This document shows positions 9,738-56,189 of a DNA stretch of 64,000 nucleotides, piece after piece. Each line of letters starts with the position of its first letter. Within the stretch, counting starts at the first letter, position 1. Source of the DNA: Minisyncoccales bacterium (GTDB lineage: Bacteria; Patescibacteriota; Minisyncoccia; Minisyncoccales; JAGMDC01); contig JBARPC010000027.1 in NCBI GenBank assembly GCA_049642725.1, positions 1,010 to 65,009 of the forward strand. The letters run 5' to 3'. Below the pieces are notes generated by a model. The model did no database searches and was not told where the DNA came from. It worked only from the letters and a program-made list of their open reading frames with translations. Both the position numbers and the translations under genes were made by a program.

Positions 9738-10820
9738 TTAATTTATTCTTAAATTAGCATTAACTTTAATGTTTTTCCAGTTTTTAGCTTTGTTTTTATG
9801 AAAATAAGCAGTTATACCTATCATTGCAGCATTATCAGTACAGAATTTAGAATCAGGAATTAAAAATAAGGAATTAGGAATTTCTTTTTTAATTTTTTCT
9901 TTAAACTGTTTTTTCAGCTTTTCATTAGCTGTAACACCGCCGCCAAGAATAATTGTTTTTACTTTATAATCTTTTGCTGCTTTAATAGTTTTTTTAATTA
10001 AAACATCAATTACTGCTTGCTGAATTTCTTTGCACATTGCTTGGATGTATTGTTTTGTTTTTTGCTGCCCGATTTTATTGGGCGAGCATCGTTCCTTCAG
10101 AGCGGGTTTTTCTTTTTTTACTGCATAAAGGACAGCGGTTTTCAGTCCTGAAAAACTAAAATCATAATCGTTTGAGTAAATCATCGGACGGGGAAGTGTA
10201 ATTTTGGATTTTGGATTTCGGATTTCCATTGCTGCTAGAGCAGCGATGGCTGGTCCTCCGGGATACCCAAGTCCTAAAATTCTGGCTGTTTTGTCAAAGC
10301 ATTCTCCAGCAGCATCATCTCTTGTTTCACCTAAAATTTTGTATTTTCCGATATTTTTCATCAAAATCAATTGAGTATGCCCGCCGCTTACAACCAAGCA
10401 AATCGCCGGCAGATATTTTTGAGAATTGAGAATTGAGAATTGAAAATTAATTAATATATGACTCTCAATATGATTTACTGGTATAATTTTTAGATTCCAC
10501 AAACGAGCTAAGGCCTTGGCAAAATTCACACCTGTCCACAAACAAGGTTCTAAACCAGGACCAGTGGTTACGGCGATCAAATCAATTTTCGGTTTGATAA
10601 AGTTTTTTATTTCTGCTTTTTTTAAAGCTTTTTTTAAAACAGGCAAAAGATTTTTCTGATGCTCTCTTTTTGCCATTGCCGGGTATACTCCTCCATATTT
10701 TTTATGAATTTCTATCTGCGACGAAACAATATTACTTAATATTTTTGCTTTTTGCTTTTTTATATTTAATATACTGATACAGGTATCATCACAAGATGTT
10801 TCAATGGCTAAGATAATCAT
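9738..10820 (-). CDS. tsaD: tRNA N6-adenosine threonylcarbamoyltransferase TsaD
   Basis: IETSCDDT, HIESH, GGHTQL, DDAAGECFDK, FSFSGLKT and CTDNAAMIG motifs. Contains two in-frame heptamer-repeat segments. Confidence 0.93.
   Translation of the reverse strand: MIILAIETSCDDTCISILNIKKQKAKILSNIVSSQIEIHKKYGGVYPAMAKREHQKNLLPVLKKALKKAEIKNFIKPKIDLIAVTTGPGLEPCLWTGVNFAKALARLWNLKIIPVNHIESHILINFQFSILNSQKYLPAICLVVSGGHTQLILMKNIGKYKILGETRDDAAGECFDKTARILGLGYPGGPAIAALAAMEIRNPKSKITLPRPMIYSNDYDFSFSGLKTAVLYAVKKEKPALKERCSPNKIGQQKTKQYIQAMCKEIQQAVIDVLIKKTIKAAKDYKVKTIILGGGVTANEKLKKQFKEKIKKEIPNSLFLIPDSKFCTDNAAMIGITAYFHKNKAKNWKNIKVNANLRIN
10201..10228 (-). repeat. Tandem heptamer array (ATTTTGG ATTTTGG ATTTCGG ATTTCCA) inside tsaD
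   Basis: Read directly. Encodes EIRNPKSKI on the coding strand. Confidence 0.9.
10421..10448 (-). repeat. Tandem heptamer array (GAGAATT x3 + GAAAATT) inside tsaD
   Basis: Read directly. On the coding strand it reads AATTTTC AATTCTC AATTCTC AATTCTC (NFQFSILNSQ). Confidence 0.9.
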
Positions 10821-10878: not shown

Positions 10879-10950
10879 GACCCTATCGTCTAGTGGTTAG
10901 GACACTACCCTTTCACGGTAAAAACCGGGGTTCGACTCCCCGTAGGGTCG
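10879..10950 (+). tRNA. tRNA-Glu (anticodon TTC)
   Basis: Manual cloverleaf: acceptor GACCCTA/TAGGGTC, anticodon loop CTTTCAC, T-arm CGGGG-TTCGACT-CCCCG. Closely resembles canonical bacterial tRNA-Glu. Confidence 0.85.
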
Positions 10951-10952
10951 CT

Positions 10953-13100
10953 TTATTCCAAGTGAATTCTTTCTCTAAATTTTTTTAATCGCTCTTCTAA
11001 AAAAGGGTGATTTTTTAATTCAGGGTCTTGCTCTAATAATTCCTTAGCAGTTTGTCTGGTTTTTTCAACTAAACCAATATCTTTAAAGGAATTCATTATT
11101 AAATCCGGGATGCCCCATTGTCTGGCGCCGGAAAAATCTCCCGGTCCTCTAATTTTTAAATCCTTTTCAGCTAATTCAAAACCATTTTCAGAAGCAATTA
11201 GGGCTTTTAACCGCTGATGTGTTTTCTTAGCTGAAGAGTCAGTAAACAAAAAGCAATATGATTGATATTTAGATCTGCCAACTCTGCCCCGAAATTGATG
11301 AAGCTGAGCCAAACCAAATCTTTCCGCTCCTTCTATAACTATTACTGTAGCGTTAGGAATATCAATACCTACTTCAATCACTGAGGTGGATACTAAAATA
11401 TCTATTTTTTTGTCTTTGAAACCTTGCATTATTTTTTCTTTTTCTTTCGGTGTCATTTTTCCGTGAAGCATTGCCAGTTTCAATTTAGGGAAAACCTCTT
11501 TTGATAATCTTTCATATTCTTCTTTTACTGATTTTACTTCAGCCCAGCTAGAAATTTCATCTTTTGCGAGCTCAGTTTTTCCGGATTCAATGCGGGGATA
11601 AATTATAAATACCTGCCTTCCCCTTTTAACTTCTTTTTTAATAAAATCGTATGTTTTTTTTCTTTGCGCTGGCGGAATAACTTTAGTAATTATTTCTTTT
11701 CTTCCTTTTGGCAGTTCATCAATTAAAGATAAATCTAAGTCGCCATAAATAGTCAAAGCCAAACTGCGTGGAATAGGAGTAGCAGTCATAGAAAGAAGAT
11801 GAGGAATAGTTGAATTTTTCATTAGCTTAGCGCGTTGTTCTACTCCAAAGCGATGTTGTTCATCTAAAATCACAAGTGCTAAGTTTCCAAACTTTACTTT
11901 ATCCTGAATTAAAGCATGAGTGCCAATAAGAATATTTATCTCATTTTTAATTGTTTTTTCTAATAACTTAGTTCTTGAAATCTCTATTGTTTCTCCTTTT
12001 AATTTTTTAGATATGAACTTATCTTCTTTTCCAGTTAAAAGTCCTATATTGATATTAAAATCTTTGAATCGGGAACTTACTTCCTTAAAATGCTGTTTGG
12101 TTAAAATTTCAGTTGGAGCCATAAAAGCAACTTGATAGCCGGCCTTTATGGTTTCCAGGGCAGCCATTAAAGCAACTATAGTTTTTCCAGAACCCACATC
12201 TCCCTCTAAGAGCCGGTTCATTGGCCGAGATTTTTCTAAATCTTTTAAAATCTGCCAGCTGGATTTTCTTTGAGCGTCAGTCAGTTTAAAAGATAATGTC
12301 TCTACAAATTTTTTCACTAATTCAATATCTATAGGAATAGATATTGCTTTTTCTTTATTCAGTGCCATTCTTGCTTGTAAGACGGCTAATTCAATCAAAA
12401 ACAGTTCTTCAAAAGAAAACCGTTTTTGCGCTCTTTCAGCTAAATTTATTGAATCAGGAAAATGAATTTGCCAAATAGCTTTTTCTATTGCTAAAAGTTT
12501 TTCTTTTTGGATAATTTCTTTTGGTATAATTTCTGGAATTTTGTTTTTAAAACTTATCAGAAGCGGTTTTATAATATAGCGAAGCCATCTTGAAGAAAGC
12601 CCTTCTGTTTCTGGATACACAGGCACAATTCTTCCAGTATGAGTTAGATCATTAGACACCGAGTTTCTATAGAAACTCGGTGTCATCTTTTCATATGCAG
12701 GATTAGAAAGATGCAGTCCGTCGTCTCCAATTGTTATTTTTCCAGCCAAACAAACATTGTCTTTTGGTTTTAAAGTTTTTATTAAATATGGCTGGTTGAA
12801 CCAAACAACTTTTATAGCCCCGGTTTTATCCTGAACAACAGCTTGGGTTAAGAACATTCTTCTTTTCCAAGTTCTGCTGTTTTTAATTTCTAAGATTTTT
12901 CCCAAGATACAGCAGTTTTCGTTTATTTTCACTTTTGAGATAGGAATGATATTAGAAAAATCCTCATAGCGATGAGGAAAATGATATAAAATGTCTCGGA
13001 CCGTCTTAATCCCCAATTTCTTCAGTTTTTTCTGAAAAACCGCGCCAATCCGCGCAATTTGTTCTATAGGCGTTGATAAGTTCATTGCCATCATCTTCAT
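10953..13100 (-). CDS. recG: ATP-dependent DNA helicase RecG
   Basis: Wedge/OB N-terminal region, helicase motifs (GDVGSGKT, DEQHRFG, SMTATPIPRS, QLHQFRGRVGR) and the C-terminal TRG motif region. Confidence 0.93.
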   Translation of the reverse strand: MKMMAMNLSTPIEQIARIGAVFQKKLKKLGIKTVRDILYHFPHRYEDFSNIIPISKVKINENCCILGKILEIKNSRTWKRRMFLTQAVVQDKTGAIKVVWFNQPYLIKTLKPKDNVCLAGKITIGDDGLHLSNPAYEKMTPSFYRNSVSNDLTHTGRIVPVYPETEGLSSRWLRYIIKPLLISFKNKIPEIIPKEIIQKEKLLAIEKAIWQIHFPDSINLAERAQKRFSFEELFLIELAVLQARMALNKEKAISIPIDIELVKKFVETLSFKLTDAQRKSSWQILKDLEKSRPMNRLLEGDVGSGKTIVALMAALETIKAGYQVAFMAPTEILTKQHFKEVSSRFKDFNINIGLLTGKEDKFISKKLKGETIEISRTKLLEKTIKNEINILIGTHALIQDKVKFGNLALVILDEQHRFGVEQRAKLMKNSTIPHLLSMTATPIPRSLALTIYGDLDLSLIDELPKGRKEIITKVIPPAQRKKTYDFIKKEVKRGRQVFIIYPRIESGKTELAKDEISSWAEVKSVKEEYERLSKEVFPKLKLAMLHGKMTPKEKEKIMQGFKDKKIDILVSTSVIEVGIDIPNATVIVIEGAERFGLAQLHQFRGRVGRSKYQSYCFLFTDSSAKKTHQRLKALIASENGFELAEKDLKIRGPGDFSGARQWGIPDLIMNSFKDIGLVEKTRQTAKELLEQDPELKNHPFLEERLKKFRERIHLE

Positions 13101-16421: not shown

Positions 16422-18957
16422 AATTTATTTAGTTCCTCATACCCATTATGACGCGGTTTGGGTTTTTACCAGAGAGGATTACTTTCATATCAATATAGAT
16501 ATTATTTTAGAAAAAGTTGTTGATTTAATTGCCAGAAAAAAAGACTATAGGTTTTTGATAGAACAAACGTATCTTTTAGAAGAAGTGAAAAAACATTATC
16601 CAGAGCTTTTTAGGAAAATTAAAAAATATGTAAATCAGGGAAAAATCGAAATTGCAGACGGAGAATATTTAATGGCAGATACAATGCTTCCCCAAGGAGA
16701 AACATTAGTCAGAGAAATAATGGTTGGCAAACAGTTTGTTAAAAAGGAATTTGATAAAGATGTAGAAGTAATGTGGCAGGCAGACAGTTTTGGATTGAAT
16801 GCCCAGCTTCCACAGATATATAAAAAATCAGGTTATAAATATTTAGCTTTCAGGCGCGGCTCTTCTAAAAATAAGCCTTCAGAATTTATCTGGCAGGCAT
16901 TAGACGGAACTAAAATTATATCGCATTTTATGCCATTAGGTTACAGGGCTGGTTTAAATCTTGCTAAGCTCGATGAAAGTTATAAAAAACTTAAAAAATT
17001 GGCTGCTACAAACAATATATTAATGCCTTCTGGCAGTGGAGTAACAATGCCTCAAGAAGAAACAATAAAAGTAGTGCGTATTTGGAATAAAAATCATAGG
17101 TCAAGAATGGAAATTGCTACTCCGTTAGAATTTTTCAAAAGCTTAGACAAAGATATTAAAAAATTACCAATTAGAAAAGGAGAAATGTATTCAGGAAGAC
17201 ATTCTCGGGTTTTTCCTGGTGCTTTATCAAGCAGAATATGGCTTAAAATTGGTTTAAGGGATTGCGAAAACAAACTAATTGCCTTTGAGAAATTTAATTT
17301 AATTAATTCTCTTTTTAGAAATAATTACTTCAAAGAAATAAAGAGCTGCTGGAAAAGGGTTTTATTTTTGGCTTTTCACGATATTGTTCCTGGAACAGGA
17401 ATTGATGCTGGATACAAAGAGGTAAGGGATGATATAATATTTTTAAACAGGAAACTGCCTGATTTAACATCTTATGTTTTAGATTCAATTATTAAAAAAG
17501 ATTCTAATAATGAGTATTATGGTGATATCGCAGTATTTAATTCATTATCTTGGGATGTATCTAACTGGACAGAAGTTATTCTAAATTTTAAGCAAGGAGA
17601 AGTTTTAAAAATAAATGGAGTAAGAAGCGGCAAAGAGGAAAGAGAAGTTGAAATTATAGAATTATCAAGACATCAAGATAGATCTTTTAAAAAAGTGAAG
17701 ATTGGTTTTATTGCTGATGTTCCGGCAACAGGGTATAAAGTATATCAGATTATTACAAATAATCCAAAAACGGTTAAAGATTCTTTTTTAAAACAGCAGG
17801 GTGATTCAATTGAAAATAAGTTTTTTAAAGTTAAGTTTTCTAAAGAAAACGGACTTATAAAAGTTTTTAAAGAAGGCAGGCAAATATGCCAAGGAAATGA
17901 AATAGTTATTGATGATGAAGCAGGGGATTTATACGCTCATAAAGAGAGTTTTGATTTTTCTTTAAAAACAGAAAGCGGGCAAGGATTGAAATATGGTGCT
18001 TTTAAGGTTAAAAGGCTTTGGGTTGATAGTTCTTGTTTAAGAAAAATTATTAATATAGAAACCGATTATTATTCTTTAAAATGGCCATATAGATTAACAG
18101 ACAGCTTAAAACCAATAATTTGGAGATATCCTTTTATAAAATTCAAAAAACAGATAATTATTTATAAAGACATTCCAAGAATTGATTTTACTATTAAGAT
18201 TGAAAATAATCATCCGAAAATAAGATTAAGGGTAAGGATTGATACTGATATAAATGAATTAAATTATACGTGCGATACTCAATTCGGTGTTCTAAAAAGA
18301 AAGACAGACCAGTGTTTTTTAAAGAGAAACGGCTGGTCCGAGGAACCATCGGGTTTGTTTCCCTGTTTGAAATGGTTTGATTATAGCAATAAAGAGAAAG
18401 GCATAACTTTTATAAATAAAGGCAATTCTGAAAACGAAATAAGAGGCAAAAGCATGTATTTGACATTATTAAGGTCAATAGATATGCTTTCTTGTGATGG
18501 CATGGCAGGTCCTATAATACCGGTTTCTGATGCCAGAGAACTGAAAAATTATACTTTTCAGTATTCTATTTATCCTCATTCTCAAAACTGGAAAAAAGCA
18601 AAATGCTGGAAGCAAGGTTATGAGTTTAATAATGATTTAGTTTCGTTTCAGATAGAAGAAAAGAAAAGATGCAGGACTAAAAATTCATTTTTGAAAATTA
18701 AACCTGATAATATTATAGCCAGTACCCTTAAAAAGGCAGAAGAGAATAAAGATATAATTGTTCGATTTTATGAGATATCTGGTAAAAACACAAAAGCATT
18801 AATAACCATATTTAAGAAAATAAAAGATGTGAGGATAGTTAATTTGATGGAAAAGGAAGAGAAAGGCATTGATAAAAAAATTATTTTGGAAGAAAATAAT
18901 ATAAAACTTGAGATTAAGCCATTTGAAATTATCACTCTTAAAATAACTTTATTCTAA
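16411..18957 (+). CDS. Glycoside hydrolase family 38 (alpha-mannosidase / MngB-like)
   Basis: GH38 N-terminal signature (VPHTHYDAVW, WQADSFGLNAQLPQI) and size (848 aa). 11-nt overlap with the HAD gene. Confidence 0.8.
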   Translation: MTDKIYLVPHTHYDAVWVFTREDYFHINIDIILEKVVDLIARKKDYRFLIEQTYLLEEVKKHYPELFRKIKKYVNQGKIEIADGEYLMADTMLPQGETLVREIMVGKQFVKKEFDKDVEVMWQADSFGLNAQLPQIYKKSGYKYLAFRRGSSKNKPSEFIWQALDGTKIISHFMPLGYRAGLNLAKLDESYKKLKKLAATNNILMPSGSGVTMPQEETIKVVRIWNKNHRSRMEIATPLEFFKSLDKDIKKLPIRKGEMYSGRHSRVFPGALSSRIWLKIGLRDCENKLIAFEKFNLINSLFRNNYFKEIKSCWKRVLFLAFHDIVPGTGIDAGYKEVRDDIIFLNRKLPDLTSYVLDSIIKKDSNNEYYGDIAVFNSLSWDVSNWTEVILNFKQGEVLKINGVRSGKEEREVEIIELSRHQDRSFKKVKIGFIADVPATGYKVYQIITNNPKTVKDSFLKQQGDSIENKFFKVKFSKENGLIKVFKEGRQICQGNEIVIDDEAGDLYAHKESFDFSLKTESGQGLKYGAFKVKRLWVDSSCLRKIINIETDYYSLKWPYRLTDSLKPIIWRYPFIKFKKQIIIYKDIPRIDFTIKIENNHPKIRLRVRIDTDINELNYTCDTQFGVLKRKTDQCFLKRNGWSEEPSGLFPCLKWFDYSNKEKGITFINKGNSENEIRGKSMYLTLLRSIDMLSCDGMAGPIIPVSDARELKNYTFQYSIYPHSQNWKKAKCWKQGYEFNNDLVSFQIEEKKRCRTKNSFLKIKPDNIIASTLKKAEENKDIIVRFYEISGKNTKALITIFKKIKDVRIVNLMEKEEKGIDKKIILEENNIKLEIKPFEIITLKITLF

Positions 18958-18993
18958 GACATATATCACTGATCGTGCTCAGTGATATATGTC
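18958..18993. terminator. Perfect 15-bp-stem hairpin between the GH38 and cupin genes (attenuator/terminator-like)
   Basis: GACATATATCACTGA-tcgtgc-TCAGTGATATATGTC followed by CTTTTG. The GTG start of the track ORF (18975) lies in the loop. Confidence 0.55.
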
Positions 18994-19004
18994 CTTTTGA
19001 AAAT

Positions 19005-19352
19005 ATGAAAAATAATAAAGATAAAAAACCCTGGGGTTCTTTTGAAATAATAAAAGAAGGCAAGGGTTATAAAATTAAAAAATTAATGGTTTTACCTGGC
19101 AAAAGATTGAGTTTACAGAAACATCAACAAAGAAAAGAACATTGGGTAGTTGTTAGAGGAACAGCTAAGGTTGTAGTTGAGAAAAAAGAATTTATTTTAA
19201 AACAAGGAGAGCATTGTTTTATAGATATTGGAGAAAATCACCGTTTAGAAAATCCCGAAGAAACAATCTTAGAAGTGATTGAAGTTCAAATCGGAGATTA
19301 TTTAGAAGAAGATGATATAGAACGTCTTGAAGACGACTTTAATAGAATATAA
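19005..19352 (+). CDS. Cupin-domain mannose-6-phosphate isomerase (type II PMI C-terminal domain-like)
   Basis: KPWGSFE...LSLQKHQQRKEHWVVVRGTAKV...GENHRLENP matches the cupin core of type II PMI/ManC. The ATG at 19005 is preferred over the GTG at 18975. Confidence 0.75.
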   Translation: MKNNKDKKPWGSFEIIKEGKGYKIKKLMVLPGKRLSLQKHQQRKEHWVVVRGTAKVVVEKKEFILKQGEHCFIDIGENHRLENPEETILEVIEVQIGDYLEEDDIERLEDDFNRI

Positions 19353-28173: not shown

Positions 28174-28297
28174 TAAAAATACAAAACAAAAAACACAAAA
28201 CAAAAAATACAAGTTAAAATCAAAAAGTTTTATTAAATTATTTTTAGCTTTTTTGCTGTATTTTTAGCTTTTTTATTTTATATTTTAATTTATTTTT
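28174..28297 (+). repeat. Intercistronic A/T-rich repeat, copy 1 (rpoB-rpoC spacer)
   Basis: Shares ACAAAACAAAAAATACAAGTYAAAATCAAAAAGTT and TATTTTTAGCTTTTTT blocks with the reverse complement of 35690..35811. Confidence 0.75.
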
Positions 28298-31200
28298 ATG
28301 CGTGTCGCAGATCTTGAATCAATTACAATAAAACTTGCTTCACCAGAAGAGATTTTGAAATGGTCGCATGGTGAAGTAGTCAAACCGGAAACTATTAATT
28401 ATCGGACACAAAGAGCTGAAAAAGACGGTCTTTTTTGTGAGAAGATTTTTGGTCCGCAAAAAGATTACGAATGTTATTGCGGTAAGTATAAAAGAATCCG
28501 TTATAAAGGGGTAGTTTGTGATAAATGCGGGGTAGAAGTAACAAAATCGTCAGTTAGAAGAGAGAAAATGGGGCATATAAGCTTAGCTTGTCCGGTTTCC
28601 CATATTTGGTTTTTAAAAGGGATTCCTTCTAGGATAGGAGCGATTTTAGACGTTCCTGTCCAGCAACTGGAAAGAGTAATTTATTTCGCTTCTTATATTA
28701 TTACTGAGGTTGATGAGCAAGGTAAAAAGAAGATATTAGAGGAGATTGACAAGGAATACCAGCAAAAGTTAAAAGTTAAAAGTGAAAAGTTAAAAGTTGA
28801 TAAAGAAGGATTGAAAGAAGCAAGAAATAAAGCAAGAGAAGAAGTTTTAATATTAAAACCATTGAAAATTATTTCTGAACTTGATTATCATAATTTTTCT
28901 TTAAAATACGGCCAAATTTTTAAAGCAGGTACTGGCGCGGAAACATTGAGAAAGATTTTTGAAAAAGTTGATTTAAATAAAATGGTCAAAGAATTAGAAA
29001 AAGAATATAGAACAGGAGCAGGCATTTCTAACGAAGAAAAAAATAATCCAAAAGAAAAAACAGAAAGCTCTTTGATTATACAGAGAAAATTTCTAAGGCG
29101 GTTAAGAATAATCCAAAAAATGGCAGAAGCGGATATCCGTCCAGAATGGATGTTGTTGACCGCTATTCCTGTTTTGCCCCCTGATTTAAGGCCAATGGTT
29201 CAATTAGATGGAGGAAGATATGCTTCTTCTGATTTAAATGACCTTTACAGAAGGGTGATTAATAGAAATAATCGGTTGAAATATCTTTTAGAAATCAATG
29301 CTCCGGAAGTTATTGTTAGAAATGAAAAAAGAATGCTTCAGGAAGCAGTAGATGCTTTGATAGATAATACTATGAGAAAAGGGACAATGACTCAAGCTAC
29401 TACTGGCGGACAGCGACTTTTAAAATCATTAGCTGATATGCTTAAAGGAAAGCAGGGCAGATTCAGGCAGAATCTTTTAGGTAAGAGGGTGGATTATTCC
29501 GGCCGGTCAGTAATCGTAGTTGGAGCGGATTTAAAACTTAATCAATGCGGTCTTCCTAAAAAAATGGCATTAGAGCTTTTTAAACCATTTGTTATTAAAG
29601 GTATTTTAGATAAGGAATTAGCTTACAATGTAAGAGGCGCCACACGGCTTATTGAAGATGAAACAGACGATGTTTGGGCTATTTTAGAAAATGTCGTTAA
29701 GAGTAAGTTGGTTTTATTAAACAGAGCGCCTACTCTGCATCGTTTAGGTATTCAAGCGTTTCAGCCAATTCTTATTGAGGGAGACGCAATTAGAATTCAT
29801 CCTTTGGTTTGTTCTGCTTTTAACGCTGATTTTGATGGTGATCAAATGGCTGTTCATTTGCCGCTTTCAGATGAGGCCCAAGAAGAGGCAAAACAGCTAA
29901 TGCTTTCCACTGTTAATTTATTGAAACCAGCTACCGGAACTGCGGTTGTTAGTCCAAGCAAAGATATTGTTTTAGGATGTTACTGGATTACTAAAATAAA
30001 GGAAGGCGCCTTAGGTGAAGGTAAAATATTTGGTTCAAAAAATGAAGCGATTCTAGCTAAAGATACTGGATTAGTGGACTTAAGGGCAAAGATTAAAGTA
30101 AGATTCAAAGAAGGAGAAATAATTGAAACAACAGTAGGAAGAATTCTTTTTAATATAACACTTCCTGATAGTTACTCTTTTGTTAATGAGCAAATAAAGT
30201 CAAAAAAATTGGAAAAAATAGTAAATGAAATTATTGAAGATTATGATAATGAAATTGCTTGGCATTGTCTTGATGAAATCAAGGATTTAGGTTTTGAGTA
30301 TTCAACATTATCCGGCATTACTTGGGGAATGGATGATTTGGTTGTTCCAAAAGAAAAGAAAAAATTAATAGAAGAGGCAGAAAGAGATGTTGAAACAATA
30401 TACAAACATTACAAAAAGGGATTATTATCTAAAGAAGAAAGAATATCTAAGAGTATTGAGGTTTGGCAGAAAACTAAATCTCAAATAGAAAAGCTAGTTC
30501 CTAAAGCTTTGCCTCCTTTGGGTTCGGTTTTCTCTATTGTTGATTCTGGAGCAAGAGGTTCTTGGGCTCAGCCAGTGCAGATGTCTGGAATGAAAGGATT
30601 AGTTATTAATCCAGCTGGACAGATTATTGAACTGCCAGTAAAGAGTTCTTTTAAAGAAGGATTTAATGCTTTGGAATATTTCATTTCTACCCATGGAGCA
30701 AGAAAGGGAACTACGGATACTGCTTTAAGGACTTCTACCGCCGGCTATCTTACAAGAAGATTAATTGATGTAGCGCATGAAATGATTATTACAGAAGAAG
30801 ATTGTAAAAATAAGACAGGGATTATTGTTTTTAAGAAAGACGCTGACGATGCTAATCAGGATTTCTATTTCAAACTTGTAAGCAGGGTAGCTATAAAAGA
30901 TGTTAAAAGCAGAAACAAAGTTCTTGTGAAAGCAGGAGAAATTATTAATCAAGAACAAGCAAGGGCGATTATTGATGCTGACATTCAAGAGTTGAGAGTT
31001 CGTTCTCCAGTGAGTTGTAATACTAAAAGAGGAATATGTAGAAAATGTTATGGTTGGGAGCTTGGTTCAAATAAGTTGGTTCCATTAGGCCAGGCAGTTG
31101 GCATTGTGGCTGCGCAAGCCATTGGGGAACCGGGAACTCAGCTTACAATGAGAACCTTCCATACAGGCGGAGTGGCAAGCGCTGGTGATATAACTCAAGG

Positions 31201-47788: not shown

Positions 47789-49921
47789 ATGAAATTTAAA
47801 ATATTATTATTTTTAATTTTATTGATAGGGATAGCTGTTTTTGGTTTTATTCTTTTTCAAGAAACAAAAGAAATCAGTCAAAGTAATGAGCATGAATTCA
47901 AAGAGGAGATATTTGATTCAACAAAAGAGGAAAAAGAAGAAATAGCTTCTCCTTTTGAACCAGCTAACTTAGATTGGGAAGAGATTATTCCTAATGCTCC
48001 TTGGTCAAAAAGAGATGCCCAGACAGGAGTTGTTTTCAAAGACAAAATATGGGTGATGGGCGGAATTTTGAGCGGGCCAGGAGATTATAGCCAAAGGGTT
48101 CATAAAAACGATGTTTGGGCTTCGGAAGACGGTGAGAATTGGGAACTAATTACAGATAAAGCTTCTTGGGGACCAAGGAGAGGCCATACCTCAGTGGTTT
48201 TTGATAATAAAATCTGGGTGATGGGAGGATGGGAAAAGAGCAGTGAATCTTATAAAAATGATGTTTGGTATTCAGAAGACGGAAAAAATTGGGTTGAAGC
48301 CACTTCTTCAGCAGAATGGGATTCAAGAATAGGTCATGCTGCAGTGGTTTTTAATAATAAGATCTGGGTGATGGGAGGAAGGGATTCGCGTTGGCAATTT
48401 AAAAATGATGTATGGTATTCAGAAGACGGAAAAAATTGGATTGAAGTTAATCGTCAATCTGCTTGGCCAGGAATATATGACCATACTCTGATTGTTTTTA
48501 AGGATAGAATATGGCTGATAGGAGGAGTGCTTTGCGGGGTCAATGGTTGGGAACCAGGAAAAAATGATGTCTGGTCTTCAACAAATGGCAAAGATTGGGA
48601 ATTAATTACCGATAAAGCTCCATGGAAAGGAAGGCATGGGCATGCAGTTGTTGTTTATAAAGACAAAATGTGGATTGTTGGCGGTTGGGATGGTATTTGC
48701 TGCGGTATAAACGATGTTTGGTATTCAGAGGATGGTTTAAATTGGGAAAAAACTCTTAACGATAGTCCTTGGGAAGGAAGAGAGGATCACAATGTTCTTG
48801 TTTTTAAGGACAAGATGTGGGTTATGGCAGGAATGATAACTGGCAGAACTCGAAAAAACGATGTTTGGTGTTCAGTTCAATCCACAACAACAGAAAAAAG
48901 GAACGAGAAAGAAAAAGAGATTGATAAAGAAAAAGAAATAATTTCAAATCCACAAGAAATAGTTTTGGAAACTCCTTTAAATAATTCATTTCTTTCTCCT
49001 AAATTGGTCAGCAGTTATCAAGTTTCCGGCCAGCCTGAGTTTGTCTTTGTTCTTAAAAATTATGCTTATTTGGCTGACGGCTTTTCTGGTCTTCATATTT
49101 TTGATGTTTTTCAGCCCGAGAACCCAGAATTAATAGGCGATTACAATACCCCTGGCTATAGCGAAGGGGTTTTTGTTTCAGGCAATTTTGCTTATGTGTC
49201 TGACAAAGACGGAGGTTTTTTAATCTTAGATATTTCTGAGCCGACGGAACCTAAATTAGTTAGTAGATATCAGCCCATTTCAGCCGAAGGTGTTTTTGTT
49301 AAAGACGATTATGCTTATTTGGCTTATGCCTGGTGGGGTTTGAAGATTTTTGATGTTTCAGATTGTTATTCTCCGGAGTTGGTTTGGAGTCAAAAATTAT
49401 CAGAAGAAACCGAAGCTGTTTTTGTTTCTGGTAATTATCTTTTTTTAGCCAAAGGCCAAAACGGAGGCCTTCAAATTTTCAATATTTCAAATCCCAAATC
49501 TCCCCAATTAGTTAGTACTTATAAAACGCCAGGTTATGCTGAAAGTATTTTTGTTAAAGATAATTATCTCTTTTTAGCTGGAGATACTGCTGGTTTTTAT
49601 ATTTTTAATATTTCCAATCCTATTCAGCCAATTCTGATTAGCAAGGTTAAAACGCCAGGTTCAGTTGAGAGCGTTTTTGTTTCCGGAGATTATGCTTTTT
49701 TAGCTTTAGGTAAATCTGGTTTAGGTATAGTTGATATTTCTGATCCCCAAAATCCAATACTTACTGATACCTTAAAGCTCTCTGGTTTTGCTGAGAGAAT
49801 TTTTGTTTCTGGAAATTATATCTATCTTGCTGTTAAAGATTTGAGCAAAGGGAATTTAGCTTTCCAAAACATTTCAGTGGAGAATGCTGGCTTTCTTGAG
49901 ATTGTTAAAATCAACAAATAA
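47789..49921 (+). CDS. Surface protein with an N-terminal Kelch-type beta-propeller and C-terminal LVIVD repeats
   Basis: Six repeats of ...KNDVWYSEDGKNW...W..R.GH..VVF.NKIWVMGG, then about 7 repeats of GxAxxVFVSGNYAYLA...GLxIFDIS-P..P.L. Confidence 0.7.
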   Translation: MKFKILLFLILLIGIAVFGFILFQETKEISQSNEHEFKEEIFDSTKEEKEEIASPFEPANLDWEEIIPNAPWSKRDAQTGVVFKDKIWVMGGILSGPGDYSQRVHKNDVWASEDGENWELITDKASWGPRRGHTSVVFDNKIWVMGGWEKSSESYKNDVWYSEDGKNWVEATSSAEWDSRIGHAAVVFNNKIWVMGGRDSRWQFKNDVWYSEDGKNWIEVNRQSAWPGIYDHTLIVFKDRIWLIGGVLCGVNGWEPGKNDVWSSTNGKDWELITDKAPWKGRHGHAVVVYKDKMWIVGGWDGICCGINDVWYSEDGLNWEKTLNDSPWEGREDHNVLVFKDKMWVMAGMITGRTRKNDVWCSVQSTTTEKRNEKEKEIDKEKEIISNPQEIVLETPLNNSFLSPKLVSSYQVSGQPEFVFVLKNYAYLADGFSGLHIFDVFQPENPELIGDYNTPGYSEGVFVSGNFAYVSDKDGGFLILDISEPTEPKLVSRYQPISAEGVFVKDDYAYLAYAWWGLKIFDVSDCYSPELVWSQKLSEETEAVFVSGNYLFLAKGQNGGLQIFNISNPKSPQLVSTYKTPGYAESIFVKDNYLFLAGDTAGFYIFNISNPIQPILISKVKTPGSVESVFVSGDYAFLALGKSGLGIVDISDPQNPILTDTLKLSGFAERIFVSGNYIYLAVKDLSKGNLAFQNISVENAGFLEIVKINK

Positions 49922-49950
49922 ATGAAGCGAGAACTGTTCTCGCTTCATTT
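49921..49950. terminator. Hairpin between convergent genes (14-bp arms)
   Basis: AATGAAGCGAGAAC-tg-GTTCTCGCTTCATT. Confidence 0.6.
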
Positions 49951-49953
49951 ATT

Positions 49954-51829: not shown

Positions 51830-51857
51830 TTGACAAAAATTTTGTTTTGTTTAAGAT
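51830..51857 (+). promoter_or_regulatory. Sigma70-like promoter upstream of groES
   Basis: TTGACA, 16 nt, TAAGAT. No CIRCE inverted repeat was seen. Confidence 0.4.
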
Positions 51858-51872
51858 AGAGAAGTAATCAAA

Positions 51873-51900
51873 AATTTTCAATTTTCAATTTTCAATTTTC
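51873..51900 (+). repeat. Tandem heptamer array (AATTTTC)x4 in the groES 5' region
   Basis: Read directly. Same heptamer family as the tsaD array at 10421..10448. Confidence 0.9.
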
Positions 51901-51953
51901 AATGAAATCCCAACTTTCAATGGAAATTAGAAATTGGTTGAAATTACATTACT

Positions 51954-52247
51954 ATGGAAATCAAACCATTAACAGATCATATTCTTATTGAGCCAATGAA
52001 AAAGGAAGAAAAGACCAAGGCAGGTATTTTGCTTCCAGAAACAGCAGATAAAGAGAGTCCTGAGCAAGGCAAGGTTATTGCCGTTGGTCCTGGCAAGAAA
52101 AATAGTTCTGGCAATATAGTTGCCATAACAGCTATTAAGCCGGGAGATAGGGTTTTGTTTACAAAATACGGTCCAAATGAGATAAAAATAGATGACAAAG
52201 AATATTTAATCGCCAAAGAAGAAGATATATTAGCTATTCTAGAATAA
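51954..52247 (+). CDS. groES: Co-chaperonin GroES
   Basis: IKPLTDHILIEP...AGILLPE...GKVIAVGPG.... Confidence 0.95.
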   Translation: MEIKPLTDHILIEPMKKEEKTKAGILLPETADKESPEQGKVIAVGPGKKNSSGNIVAITAIKPGDRVLFTKYGPNEIKIDDKEYLIAKEEDILAILE

Positions 52248-56149: not shown

Positions 56150-56189
56150 GGAGGTTCAACCTCCAATGGAGGTTGAACCTCCTAAAATT
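56150..56189 (+). promoter_or_regulatory. Hairpin/mini-ORF module, copy 2 (duplicated hairpin, upstream of the bPH_2 gene)
   Basis: GGAGGTTCAACCTCC followed by ATGGAGGTTGAACCTCCTAAAATT. Confidence 0.7.

What the first reader, a model, noticed from the sequence alone, without database searches (positions are those of the whole stretch)
10201..10448. Two tandem heptanucleotide arrays embedded in frame in the essential gene tsaD
10201..10228 holds four ATTTYSR-type heptamers. 10421..10448 reads (AATTYTC)x4 on the coding strand, the same heptamer found four times in the groES 5' region at 51873..51900.

A 7-nt unit is not a multiple of three. Any slippage by one unit would therefore frameshift an essential gene, yet the arrays are maintained. 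The same phenomenon appears in ligA (1364..1391), rpoC (28764..28798) and the rpoB-rpoC spacer (28176..28210).
Basis: seen in the sequence. Interest (0 to 1): 0.6.

Follow-up and report, generated by a model that had tools for sequence, protein, structure and literature searches.

The report
Frameshift-prone 7-base repeats inside housekeeping genes
This small-genome (Patescibacteria/CPR) bacterium carries short runs of a 7-base unit repeated about four times inside essential genes such as tsaD; they are real, common across the whole lineage, and in relatives they visibly slip and break the gene, so they look like unstable mutational by-products tolerated in protein surface loops, not purpose-built signals.

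Summary
The window holds six period-7 arrays of about 4-5 units. Two lie in frame in tsaD (10201-10228, 10419-10448), one each in ligA and rpoC, one in the rpoB-rpoC spacer and one in the groES leader. With at most 2 mismatches, 4 arrays are found against 0.0 expected, and none for periods 6 or 8-12.

The excess is lineage-wide. There are 45 such arrays in 1.18 Mb around tsaD of relatives (mostly Patescibacteria) and 7 in 0.27 Mb around rpoC of Patescibacteria-like relatives. There are none in 0.89 Mb of apparently non-Patescibacteria controls.

Coding arrays sit in variable loops or lineage-specific insertions. They are stop-free in all three frames on the sense strand. At tsaD loop 1, array-bearing orthologues differ from array-free ones by 21 nt (3 units, 7 aa).

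At the site orthologous to window array 1, two Nealsonbacteria populations hold alleles lacking one unit, two units or one base. Each of these splits tsaD.

Best reading: these are hypermutable heptanucleotide microsatellites, a known prokaryotic class. They arise from a 7-nt slippage bias and are filtered by reading frame and loop tolerance. Their setting, in frame in housekeeping genes of tiny genomes, is unusual. Function is not shown.

The parts
9738..10820 (-). tsaD ORF (360 aa), intact, host of two arrays
   Evidence: ORF list and translation. Homologues are annotated TsaD and carry PF00814. Match to T. maritima TsaD 6nak, E 1.6e-67.
10201..10228 (-). Array 1 in tsaD loop 2 (between YPGGP and LPRPM). 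The coding strand reads GAAATCC GAAATCC AAAATCC AAAAT, about 3.7 units, and encodes EIRNPKSKI.
   Evidence: It is homologous to the (AAATCCG)x4.6 array of Ca. Nealsonbacteria TsaD P0117, where -7 nt and -1 nt alleles occur. The loop is 16 aa in outgroups and 18-22 aa in this clade.
10419..10448 (-). Array 2 in tsaD loop 1 (between HxExH and SGGHT). The coding strand reads AATTTTC (AATTCTC)x3 AA, about 4.3 units, and encodes NFQFSILNSQ.
   Evidence: Orthologues carry NFQFSIFNFQ = (AATTTTC)n (L003, P0002, P0006, P0008, P0041) or the single-unit state NFQK (L016, P0009, P0013, P0016). The two states differ by exactly 21 nt.
1364..1393 (+). Perfect (AAGTTCA)x4.3 array in ligA. It encodes part of QQVQSSKFKVQN.
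   Evidence: It falls in a roughly 10-aa insertion in the HhH region relative to E. coli LigA 2owo.
28175..28212 (+). Degenerate period-7/14 array (AAAAATACAAAACA)x2.7 in the rpoB-rpoC spacer
   Evidence: The spacers of relatives L092, L097 and L099 carry period-7 arrays with other units. No significant RNA fold in the window.
28764..28798 (+). (AAAAGTT)x5 array in rpoC, one mismatch. It encodes QKLKVKSEKLKV.
   Evidence: It lies in a K/E-rich lineage-specific insertion. That segment is 37 aa in the non-Patescibacteria loci, 78-121 aa in the close relatives and 80 aa in the window.
51873..51903 (+). Perfect (AATTTTC)x4.4 array in the predicted groES 5' leader
   Evidence: It lies 16 nt downstream of a promoter-like TTGACA-16-TAAGAT site at 51830-51857 and 50 nt upstream of the groES ATG at 51954.
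51921..51946 (+). Degenerate inverted partner (GGAAATT AGAAATT GG TTGAAATT) of the groES-leader array. Together they can form a long A/U-rich hairpin that ends at the start codon.
   Evidence: RNA fold of 51860-51960: -20.5 kcal/mol against -13.6 +/- 2.9 for shuffles, z = -2.35, with 6 of 200 shuffles as good. The support is modest.

Best explanation
The arrays are heptanucleotide microsatellites, long simple-sequence repeats with a 7-nt unit.

**Proposed mechanism**
- A replication or repair misalignment process with a strong preference for a 7-nt step creates tandem copies of whatever local heptamer is present, and keeps them alike. This step is inferred.
- The bias is strong across Patescibacteria. 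This is shown.
- In intergenic DNA the arrays are free. There they are about 3 times denser, reach 9 units, and may contain stop triplets.

**Filters inside genes**
- The unit must be free of stop triplets in all three frames on the sense strand. This explains the A/T-rich units bridged by a C, such as CAATTTT, CAAAGTT and CAAAATC.
- The net length must keep the reading frame. An example is one unit versus four units, a difference of 21 nt or 7 aa.
- The site must be a surface loop or a lineage-specific insertion that tolerates an arbitrary peptide.

**Behaviour over time**
- Once the array has become the loop, losing three units would over-shorten the loop, and losing one or two units frameshifts the gene. 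Purifying selection then holds the array near 4-5 units. This is inferred.
- Ongoing gain and loss of units keeps the copies alike (concerted evolution).
- The arrays remain hypermutable. Slipped, gene-breaking alleles arise continually and are seen at low frequency in natural populations of relatives. This is shown.
- The coding arrays therefore most likely have no dedicated function. They are a tolerated mutational load and a source of new loop sequence.
For: **Period specificity**
- In the window, 4 arrays against 0.0 expected, and none at periods 6 or 8-12.
- 45 period-7 arrays against 2-3 each for periods 5, 6 and 8, and 0 for periods 9-12, in 1.18 Mb around tsaD of relatives.
- Counts of perfect period-7 arrays by copy number are 297, 10, 18 and 2 for 2, 3, 4 and 5 copies. 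The Markov expectation is 130 for 2 copies and 0 for 3 or more.

**Lineage specificity**
- 7 arrays in 269 kb of Patescibacteria-like rpoC loci against 0 in 892 kb of other bacteria.

**Units independent of locus**
- Every array in the window has its own unit.
- At the same tsaD loops, different lineages carry internally uniform arrays with different units: AAATCCG, AAATTCA, AATATTC, AAATACx, AATTTTC, CGAAATT, CAAAGTT. Decay alone cannot produce this.

**Filter signatures**
- Coding arrays are stop-free on the sense strand.
- The intergenic arrays L012:13512, L015:4607 and L030:4643 carry stop triplets on both strands (my reading of the sequences listed).
- Density is 3.6 per 100 kb in coding sequence and about 12 per 100 kb in intergenic sequence. 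The longest arrays are 42 nt and 61 nt respectively.
- Loop 1 is 19-21 aa in most of the outgroup and array-free loci, and 26-28 aa in L003, L011, L017 and L021.
- NFQK (L016) and NFQFSIFNFQK (L003) differ by exactly 21 nt.
- All coding arrays fall at indel sites relative to solved structures.

**Live slippage**
- Nealsonbacteria species A: the intact allele is (AAATCCG)x4.6, listed in 142 index blocks. L081 and L082 lack one unit with 0 other differences over 3 kb. L083 lacks one base inside the array.
- Species B: L088 lacks two of five units.
- All of these split tsaD into two ORFs.

**Generality**
- Arrays also lie in class I aminoacyl-tRNA synthetases (up to 4 in one gene), GyrA and RecG of relatives.

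**Literature**
- Heptanucleotide units are the most abundant class of 5-11-nt long SSRs in most prokaryotic genomes. A polymerase contact of about 7 nt was proposed as the cause (Mrazek et al. 2007, as summarised in PMC4679880 and PMC4692102).
Against: - The generator itself is not observed. Nothing here shows why the step is 7 nt.
- Stepwise slippage cannot easily build an array inside an essential gene, because the +1 and +2 unit intermediates are frameshifts. A multi-unit jump, a length-neutral out-of-register copying event, or transiently tolerated broken alleles must be assumed.
- The mode at about 4-5 units is the same in intergenic DNA. Frame selection therefore does not explain it, and an intrinsic length equilibrium has to be postulated.
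- The same loop has kept an array with a related unit in lineages whose TsaD is only about 63% identical (window against P0117). This could also reflect selection for the array.
- Intergenic arrays recur upstream of rpoC and groES and sometimes form inverted pairs that fold, which hints at function for that subset.
- No length polymorphism could be tested in the window's own species. Its TsaD is absent from the protein collection, and the ligA flank pattern was not found in the metagenome collection.
Confidence: 0.66

Rival explanations
1. The arrays are adaptive contingency loci. On this reading they are kept because reversible unit slippage switches housekeeping genes off and on, or splits them into two-piece proteins. 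That would generate slow-growing or dormant subpopulations in an episymbiotic lifestyle.
For: - One- and two-unit variants that break tsaD exist as the assembled consensus allele in several samples.
- In the relatives' one-unit (L081, L082) and one-base (L083) alleles, and in the simulated one-unit loss in the window gene, the downstream fragment restarts at the conserved Met of LPRPM, overlapping the upstream stop. In L088 the two ORFs overlap by about 20 nt. A two-piece TsaD split at a surface loop is conceivable.
- The arrays persist at the same loops across deep divergence.
Against: - The genes affected are core housekeeping genes (tsaD, ligA, rpoC, aaRS, gyrA, recG). They are not the surface, restriction-modification or host-interaction genes typical of contingency loci.
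- The arrays are mid-gene, not enriched near N-termini.
- Broken alleles are rare, about 4 contigs. The intact proteins are recorded on 79 and 66 contigs and listed in 142 and 114 index blocks.
- Intergenic density is higher than coding density, the opposite of what selection for coding switches predicts.
Confidence: 0.1
2. The arrays are cis-acting nucleic-acid elements. They would be binding platforms for a protein (for example ribosomal protein S1, a cold-shock protein or a nucleoid protein), or arms of regulatory hairpins in mRNA leaders and spacers. Coding copies would be by-products of the same sequence family.
For: - Two of the six window arrays lie in transcribed non-coding DNA, directly upstream of highly expressed genes (groES, rpoC).
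- Relatives also have period-7 arrays in the rpoB-rpoC spacer.
- The groES leader array pairs with a degenerate inverted copy, z = -2.35. The L097 spacer folds with z = -4.6.
- The genome is poor in Shine-Dalgarno motifs, 5 of 46 genes. No CIRCE operator is present. An A/U-rich leader element is therefore plausible.
- A similar proposal exists for TAACTGA repeats in Beggiatoaceae (PMC4679880).
Against: - The unit sequence differs at every locus, so no single binding specificity fits.
- The window's rpoB-rpoC spacer does not fold.
- No Rfam family matches.
- Most arrays are inside ORFs, far from starts.
- The fold statistic for the groES leader is weak.
Confidence: 0.12
3. The arrays are footprints or preferred targets of very small mobile palindromic elements that duplicate 7 bp on insertion. 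Repeated insertion and excision at one site would stack copies of the local target heptamer.
For: - In relatives, GC-rich palindromes sit inside heptamer arrays, with units of the array on both sides (L018 and L036, tsaD loop 1).
- In-frame palindromic inserts (HPVK...LFNRVK) occur at up to three sites in a single TsaD (P0003).
- The model would explain a fixed 7-nt step with locus-specific unit sequence.
Against: - None of the six window arrays has a palindrome in or next to it.
- Most arrays in the loci have none.
- The unit-number variants seen in nature are clean losses of whole units in otherwise identical DNA, as expected for slippage.
- Each insertion and excision cycle would also frameshift.
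- No transposase is linked to the arrays here.
Confidence: 0.08
4. The arrays are sequencing or assembly artefacts, or a chance outcome of A/T-rich, lysine-rich coding sequence.
For: The genome is about 33% G+C and rich in AAA/AAT codons, which raises the background of short repeats.
Against: - Composition-matched simulations give 0.0 arrays, and neighbouring periods give none.
- The ORFs stay intact.
- Homologous arrays are found in many independent assemblies from JGI, ENA and NCBI.
- The arrays are much shorter than the assembly k-mers.
Confidence: 0.02

Closest known systems
Long simple-sequence repeats with 5-11-nt units (LSSR5-11) and the heptanucleotide excess in prokaryotes (Mrazek, Guo and Shah 2007, as summarised in PMC4679880 and PMC4692102)
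   Same: - Tandem head-to-tail copies of a 7-nt unit occur far above chance.
- The unit sequence varies between loci.
- The excess is specific to period 7.
- Polymerase slippage is the proposed origin.
- Length changes by whole units.
   Different: - That class was reported mainly from large genomes of free-living or opportunistic bacteria (from memory of the original abstract).
- Non-triplet units were reported as disfavoured in coding regions (PMC4679880).
- Here the arrays are in a very small, A/T-rich Patescibacteria genome.
- About 70% of them (37 of about 50) lie in frame inside housekeeping genes, with a narrow size of about 4-5 units.
Single-unit heptamer families: cyanobacterial STRR repeats, TAACTGA repeats of Beggiatoaceae and cyanobacteria (PMC4679880), GGGAATC and GGGGAYT repeats of Xanthomonas and Nostoc (PMC4692102)
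   Same: - Period 7 and small copy numbers (2-6 per set in the BOGUAY genome).
- Frequent location in leaders just upstream of start codons in genomes with few Shine-Dalgarno sites.
- Occasional inverted pairs.
- Rare in-frame copies at protein peripheries.
   Different: - Those families each have one conserved unit genome-wide and are overwhelmingly intergenic.
- Here each locus has its own unit and most arrays are coding.
- No G-quadruplex potential is expected from these A/T-rich units (my reading of the unit sequences; not tested).
Phase-variable contingency loci (SSR-driven on/off switching in Haemophilus, Neisseria, Campylobacter; PMC2651432, PMC3315296)
   Same: A non-triplet SSR lies inside an ORF, and its unit slippage frameshifts the gene. 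Slipped alleles are detectable in natural populations.
   Different: - Contingency loci mostly use 1-5-nt units and many more copies.
- They lie in surface, restriction-modification or host-interaction genes and are often near the 5' end.
- Here the units are 7 nt and there are only about 4 copies.
- The arrays are mid-gene in core housekeeping genes, with no sign of balanced on and off states.
In-frame selfish insertions in conserved genes (Rickettsia palindromic elements; very small dispersed repeats of Nostoc, Elhai et al. 2008; both recalled from memory, not read here)
   Same: Short extra peptide segments are written into surface loops of conserved proteins without destroying them. In relatives, small palindromes co-occur with heptamer arrays.
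   Different: The window arrays are tandem direct repeats with no palindromic structure and no shared sequence between loci. They do not behave as copies of one mobile element.

Membership tests
Heptanucleotide microsatellite / LSSR5-11 | Uninterrupted tandem iterations of one 5-11-nt unit, longer than expected from composition | tested here: met
   TRF and an exact scan. 4 arrays against 0.0 expected in 200 Markov-3 simulations.
Heptanucleotide microsatellite / LSSR5-11 | Length polymorphism by whole units between otherwise near-identical genomes (slipped-strand behaviour) | tested here: met
   Met at the orthologous tsaD site in two relatives: -7 nt (L081, L082) and -14 nt (L088), with 0-1 other differences over 2.3-3 kb. 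It could not be tested in the window's own species.
Heptanucleotide microsatellite / LSSR5-11 | Excess specific to the period, not to one sequence motif | tested here: met
   Six different units in the window and dozens in relatives. Other periods are not enriched.
Phase-variable contingency locus | A change in repeat-unit number switches the reading frame or expression of the gene | tested here: met
   Simulated +/-1 and +/-2 unit changes truncate TsaD, while +/-3 units keep the frame. Natural split alleles exist.
Phase-variable contingency locus | The gene belongs to a class under fluctuating selection (surface structures, restriction-modification, host interaction) | tested here: not met
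   The hosts are tsaD, ligA and rpoC in the window, and class I aaRS, gyrA and recG in relatives.
Phase-variable contingency locus | Both states are common and interconvert in populations | tested here: inconclusive
   Broken alleles appear in 4 contigs. The intact proteins are recorded on 79 and 66 contigs. There are no read-level data and reversion has not been observed.
Single-unit heptamer families (STRR, TAACTGA, GGGAATC) | One conserved unit sequence repeated at many loci of the genome | tested here: not met
   Units differ at each window locus. Only AATTTTC is shared between the groES leader and, in degenerate form, tsaD. (AATTTTC)x3 occurs in 2 of 170 fetched loci.
Single-unit heptamer families (STRR, TAACTGA, GGGAATC) | Predominantly intergenic, close to start codons | tested here: not met
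   4 of 6 window arrays and 37 of about 50 arrays in Patescibacteria-like DNA are inside ORFs.
In-frame palindromic mobile elements (RPE-like / SDR-like) | Palindromic or hairpin-forming element with copies of shared sequence at many sites | tested here: not met
   The window arrays are direct repeats with no inverted-repeat arms beyond chance. Such palindromes exist only in relatives.
CIRCE/HrcA operator of groES-groEL | Inverted repeat TTAGCACTC-N9-GAGTGCTAA upstream of groES | tested here: not met
   No match in the window with up to 3 mismatches.
Any curated RNA family (Rfam 15) | Covariance-model match at or above the gathering score over an array | tested here: not met
   Only seven tRNAs were found in the window.

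The most novel reading that the evidence does not exclude
Patescibacteria may possess a lineage-specific mutational process with a fixed 7-nt register. It could act through multi-unit stuttering or through length-neutral out-of-register copying. On this reading it continually writes and rewrites short peptide loops into essential proteins. It would then be a main source of the many lineage-specific insertions in CPR proteins. It would also leave dozens of core genes per genome one slip away from inactivation or from splitting into two-piece proteins. A subset in leaders and spacers (groES, rpoC) may have been co-opted as hairpin or leader elements in these Shine-Dalgarno-poor genomes.
Probability: 0.25. 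Interest if true: 0.75.

Novelty: new variant of a known kind. Interest (0 to 1): 0.55.

Why it matters
- **Mutational load.** If this is general, a whole phylum of ultra-small bacteria tolerates frameshift-prone microsatellites inside its core replication, transcription and translation genes. That is contrary to the usual rule that mutable non-triplet repeats are purged from the middle of essential genes.
- **Origin of insertions.** It offers a concrete, testable source for the lineage-specific loop insertions of CPR proteins.
- **Annotation.** It explains some 'split' or 'pseudogenised' housekeeping genes in metagenome-assembled genomes.
- **Strain tracking.** It provides natural markers for strain-level population dynamics.
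- **The 7-nt question.** It gives a strong natural system for asking why 7 nt is the favoured slippage step in prokaryotes, which has been open since 2007.

Tried and rejected
- **Window species in public data.** I looked for the same species to measure unit-number polymorphism directly. The exact TsaD is not on record, the best protein hit is 74% identical, and a flank-gap-flank pattern across the ligA array found nothing in metagenome contigs.
- **In-frame length variants.** I looked for +/-7 aa variants within 90%-identity TsaD clusters. The length differences found were alternative starts, C-terminal changes or unrelated insertions, not array changes.
- **Protein-level selection.** Rejected as an explanation for a repeated peptide. 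The three frames of a heptamer encode different residues, the units are identical at synonymous positions, and arrays also occur in non-coding DNA.
- **Pairing of the two tsaD arrays.** By eye the two unit sequences are not complementary. This was not tested by folding.
- **Fold of the rpoB-rpoC spacer.** Not better than shuffles.
- **Rfam and CIRCE scans.** Nothing at the arrays.
- **Literature.** Searches for heptamer or tandem repeats in Patescibacteria/CPR found no paper in the held library. The original papers of Mrazek 2007 and Elhai 2008 are not held, so they are cited second-hand or from memory.
- **Frame selection as the cause of the 4-unit mode.** Rejected, because intergenic arrays show the same length mode.
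Full report
**1. The observation**

- On the tsaD coding (-) strand, 10421-10448 reads AATTTTC AATTCTC AATTCTC AATTCTC.
- On the same strand, 10201-10228 reads GGAAATC CGAAATC CAAAATC CAAAATT, that is units GAAATCC, GAAATCC, AAAATCC.
- The ORF 9738-10820 (-) is an intact 360-aa TsaD. It translates the arrays as NFQFSILNSQ and EIRNPKSKI.
- Perfect arrays lie in ligA (1364-1393, AAGTTCA x4.3) and in the groES leader (51873-51903, AATTTTC x4.4).
- A five-unit array with one mismatch lies in rpoC (28764-28798).
- A degenerate 7/14-nt array lies in the rpoB-rpoC spacer (28175-28212).

Chance does not explain them.
- Perfect arrays of three or more copies exist only for period 7 among periods 6-15.
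- In 200 third-order Markov simulations, no four-copy period-7 window with at most 2 mismatches appeared, against 4 observed. With at most 4 mismatches the counts are 6 observed and 0.09 expected.

**2. It is a property of the lineage, not of this gene**

TsaD homologues place the window in Patescibacteria, near Ca. Nealsonbacteria, Gribaldobacteria and Paceibacterota. The best hit is 74% identical, so the species itself is not in the collections.

| DNA sampled | Size | Period-7 four-copy arrays | Other periods |
|---|---|---|---|
| Around tsaD, 80 genomes (mostly Patescibacteria) | 1.18 Mb | 45 | 2-3 each for periods 5, 6, 8; none for 9-12 |
| Around rpoC, 19 Patescibacteria-like loci | 269 kb | 7 | 0-1 |
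| Around rpoC, 61 apparently non-Patescibacteria loci (judged from rpoC match and sources) | 892 kb | 0 | 0-2 |

Counts of perfect period-7 arrays by copy number are 297, 10, 18 and 2 for 2, 3, 4 and 5 copies. The distribution therefore has a mode at four units.

Array-bearing ORFs in relatives include class I aminoacyl-tRNA synthetases (up to four arrays in one gene), GyrA and RecG.

**3. Where the coding arrays sit**

- Both tsaD arrays coincide with indel positions relative to T. maritima TsaD. Each window loop is 3 aa longer.
- The ligA array is in a roughly 10-aa insertion in the HhH region relative to E. coli LigA.
- The rpoC array is in a K/E-rich segment. That segment is 37 aa in the non-Patescibacteria loci, 78-121 aa in the close relatives and 80 aa in the window.
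- On the sense strand the coding arrays contain no stop triplet in any frame. This is necessary because a 7-nt repeat is read in all three frames within three units. It explains the recurrent A/T-rich units bridged by C.
- Intergenic arrays in relatives do contain stop triplets on both strands, for example L012:13512, L015:4607 and L030:4643 (my reading of the sequences listed). The stop-free composition is therefore a filter, not a property of the generator.
- With ATG-based gene calls, density is 3.6 per 100 kb in coding DNA and about 12 per 100 kb in intergenic DNA. The length mode is the same (25-36 nt). The longest arrays are 42 nt in coding and 61 nt in intergenic DNA.

**4. Frame-keeping and turnover**

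- TsaD loop 1 (HxExH to SGGH) is 19-21 aa in most of the outgroup and array-free loci. It is 26-28 aa in array-bearing L003, L011, L017 and L021, and longer in others.
- At the DNA level, L016 (…AAT TTT CAA AAA…, NFQK) and L003 (NFQFSIFNFQK) differ by exactly three units, 21 nt. The window gene has the four-unit state.
- Loop 2 is 16 aa in outgroups and 18-22 aa in this clade. There nearly every orthologue carries a heptamer-derived peptide: KIQNSKFKI, KIQDSRFKL, KFKIRNLKFEI, EIRNPKSEI.
- Different lineages have internally uniform arrays with different units at the same site and nearly the same loop length. Decay of one ancestral array cannot produce this. Units must have been gained and lost repeatedly (concerted evolution), or the arrays were re-created.
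- The window arrays show the same signature. The T-to-C variant occupies three adjacent units of array 2, and the G/A variants of array 1 form two adjacent blocks.

**5. Slippage caught in nature**

The 90%-identity clusters of two Nealsonbacteria TsaD proteins contain pairs of half-length ORFs. DNA alignments give the following.

| Population | Intact allele | Variant allele | Other differences |
|---|---|---|---|
| Species A (P0117) | GG(AAATCCG)x4 AAATT | L081 and L082, two separate ENA assembly records: exactly one unit fewer | none over 3 kb |
| Species A (P0117) | same | L083: one base fewer inside the array | 3 mismatches over 3 kb |
| Species B (P0078) | five AAATTCR-type units | L088: two units fewer | 1 mismatch over 2.3 kb |

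- This is the site orthologous to window array 1, and the unit is related (AAATCCG against AAATCCA/G).
- The intact alleles dominate. They are recorded on 79 and 66 contigs and listed in 142 and 114 index blocks.
- Simulated loss or gain of one or two units in either window array truncates TsaD, while +/-3 units keeps the frame.
- After a one-unit loss in array 1, the downstream fragment would restart at the Met of LPRPM, overlapping the upstream stop. The natural split alleles L081-L083 show the same arrangement. In L088 the two ORFs overlap by about 20 nt.

**6. What it most likely is**

These are heptanucleotide microsatellites.
- Shown: the period specificity, the lineage specificity, the independence of unit sequence from locus, the coding filters, and live unit loss.
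- Inferred: the generator, a replication or repair misalignment with a preferred 7-nt register. This was proposed for prokaryotes in general by Mrazek et al. 2007 (summarised in PMC4679880 and PMC4692102).
- Inferred: a ratchet that holds arrays near four units once they have become the loop.

Unresolved:
- How an array expands inside an essential gene without passing through frameshifted intermediates. A multi-unit jump, length-neutral out-of-register copying, or transient tolerance of broken or split alleles is needed.
- Why about 4-5 units is also the mode in non-coding DNA.

**7. Rivals**

- An adaptive on/off switch is not excluded. However, it fits poorly with the gene classes, the rarity of off alleles and the higher intergenic density.
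- A cis-regulatory role is plausible only for the non-coding subset.
  - The groES-leader array pairs with a degenerate inverted copy at about 51921-51946, in a hairpin that ends at the start codon. The fold is -20.5 kcal/mol with z = -2.35.
  - The rpoB-rpoC spacer of L097 folds strongly, z = -4.6. The window's spacer does not.
  - The genome has few Shine-Dalgarno motifs and no CIRCE operator.
- A link to small palindromic elements is suggested by palindromes embedded in arrays in L018 and L036 and by in-frame HPVK...LFNRVK inserts in relatives. No window array has such an element.
- Artefact is excluded by independent assemblies and intact ORFs.

**8. Comparison with the known, and novelty**

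- The class (long SSRs with 5-11-nt units and an excess of heptamers) is known.
- So are single-unit heptamer families: STRR, TAACTGA, and GGGAATC/GGGGAYT (PMC4679880, PMC4692102).
- Different here:
  - the setting in a very small A/T-rich genome;
  - the locus-specific units;
  - the narrow size;
  - above all, the in-frame location in the middle of core housekeeping genes. [quoted passage not shown]
- I found no paper describing this for Patescibacteria in the held library. That is not proof of absence.
- I rate it a new variant of a known kind, with moderate interest.

Noticed in passing
window 51860-51960: The groES leader can form a long A/U-rich hairpin. Its arms are the (AATTTTC)x4 array and a degenerate inverted array at about 51921-51946, and it closes just before the ATG at 51954. 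The fold is -20.5 kcal/mol with z = -2.35. There is no CIRCE operator in the window. A thermosensor or leader role is conceivable but unsupported.
   Followed up: partly
window, 46 ORF starts: Only 5 of 46 genes have even a 4-nt Shine-Dalgarno-like motif upstream. The sequences upstream of the starts are visibly A/U-rich. Translation initiation is probably largely Shine-Dalgarno-independent.
   Followed up: partly
P0003, P0004, P0005, P0001, P0063 (TsaD of relatives); L018 and L036 tsaD loop 1: Relatives carry in-frame palindromic inserts of about 66 nt. They encode HPVKS...LFNRVK, and CACCCTGTTAAA...TTTAACAGGGTG is my back-translation of the ends. P0003 has them at up to three different sites of one TsaD. 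In L018 and L036, GC-rich palindromes sit inside heptamer arrays. These look like very small mobile elements inserting into coding loops.
   Followed up: partly
window 10040-10110 (- strand): A 17-aa insertion in TsaD (LKERCSPNKIGQQKTKQ) relative to T. maritima is locally GC-rich. It contains a small hairpin, GCTCGCCC...GGGCAGC, z = -2.1. It lies at the site where relatives carry the palindromic insert and may be a decayed copy.
   Followed up: partly
window 9843-9882: A degenerate period-7 stretch, GAATnnn x6 with 73% matches, lies in the 3' part of tsaD. It encodes the clade-conserved EIPNSLFLIPDSKF and shows no length difference from T. maritima. It may be an old fixed array or chance.
   Followed up: no
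L097:18574-18639 and 18931-19034: A relative has a 9-unit (ATAATCA) array just after recA. It also has a pair of inverted arrays, (CAATTTT)n and (GGAAATT)n, between ssb and rpsR. Non-coding arrays can be longer and often come as inverted pairs.
   Followed up: partly
L081:1497, L082:1490, L083:1458: In the naturally frameshifted tsaD alleles L081-L083, the second ORF starts exactly where the first ends, at the conserved Met after LPRP. The gene is therefore annotated as two adjacent TsaD fragments. In L088 the two ORFs overlap by about 20 nt (1304-1326). Whether a two-piece TsaD works is unknown.
   Followed up: partly
window 49917-49953, 56150-56182, 12655-12684, 18958-18993: Several perfect palindromes with 14-18-nt arms. 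Examples are AATAAATGAAGCGAGAAC/GTTCTCGCTTCATTTATT between convergent ORFs, and GGAGGTTCAACCTCCA/TGGAGGTTGAACCTCC. They may be terminators or binding sites and are unrelated to the heptamer arrays.
   Followed up: no
window 10879-10950: A tRNA gene lies 59 nt upstream of the tsaD start, on the opposite strand. recG follows at 10953-13100 (-). Adjacency of recG and tsaD is shared with Ca. Nealsonbacteria loci L089 and L090.
   Followed up: no
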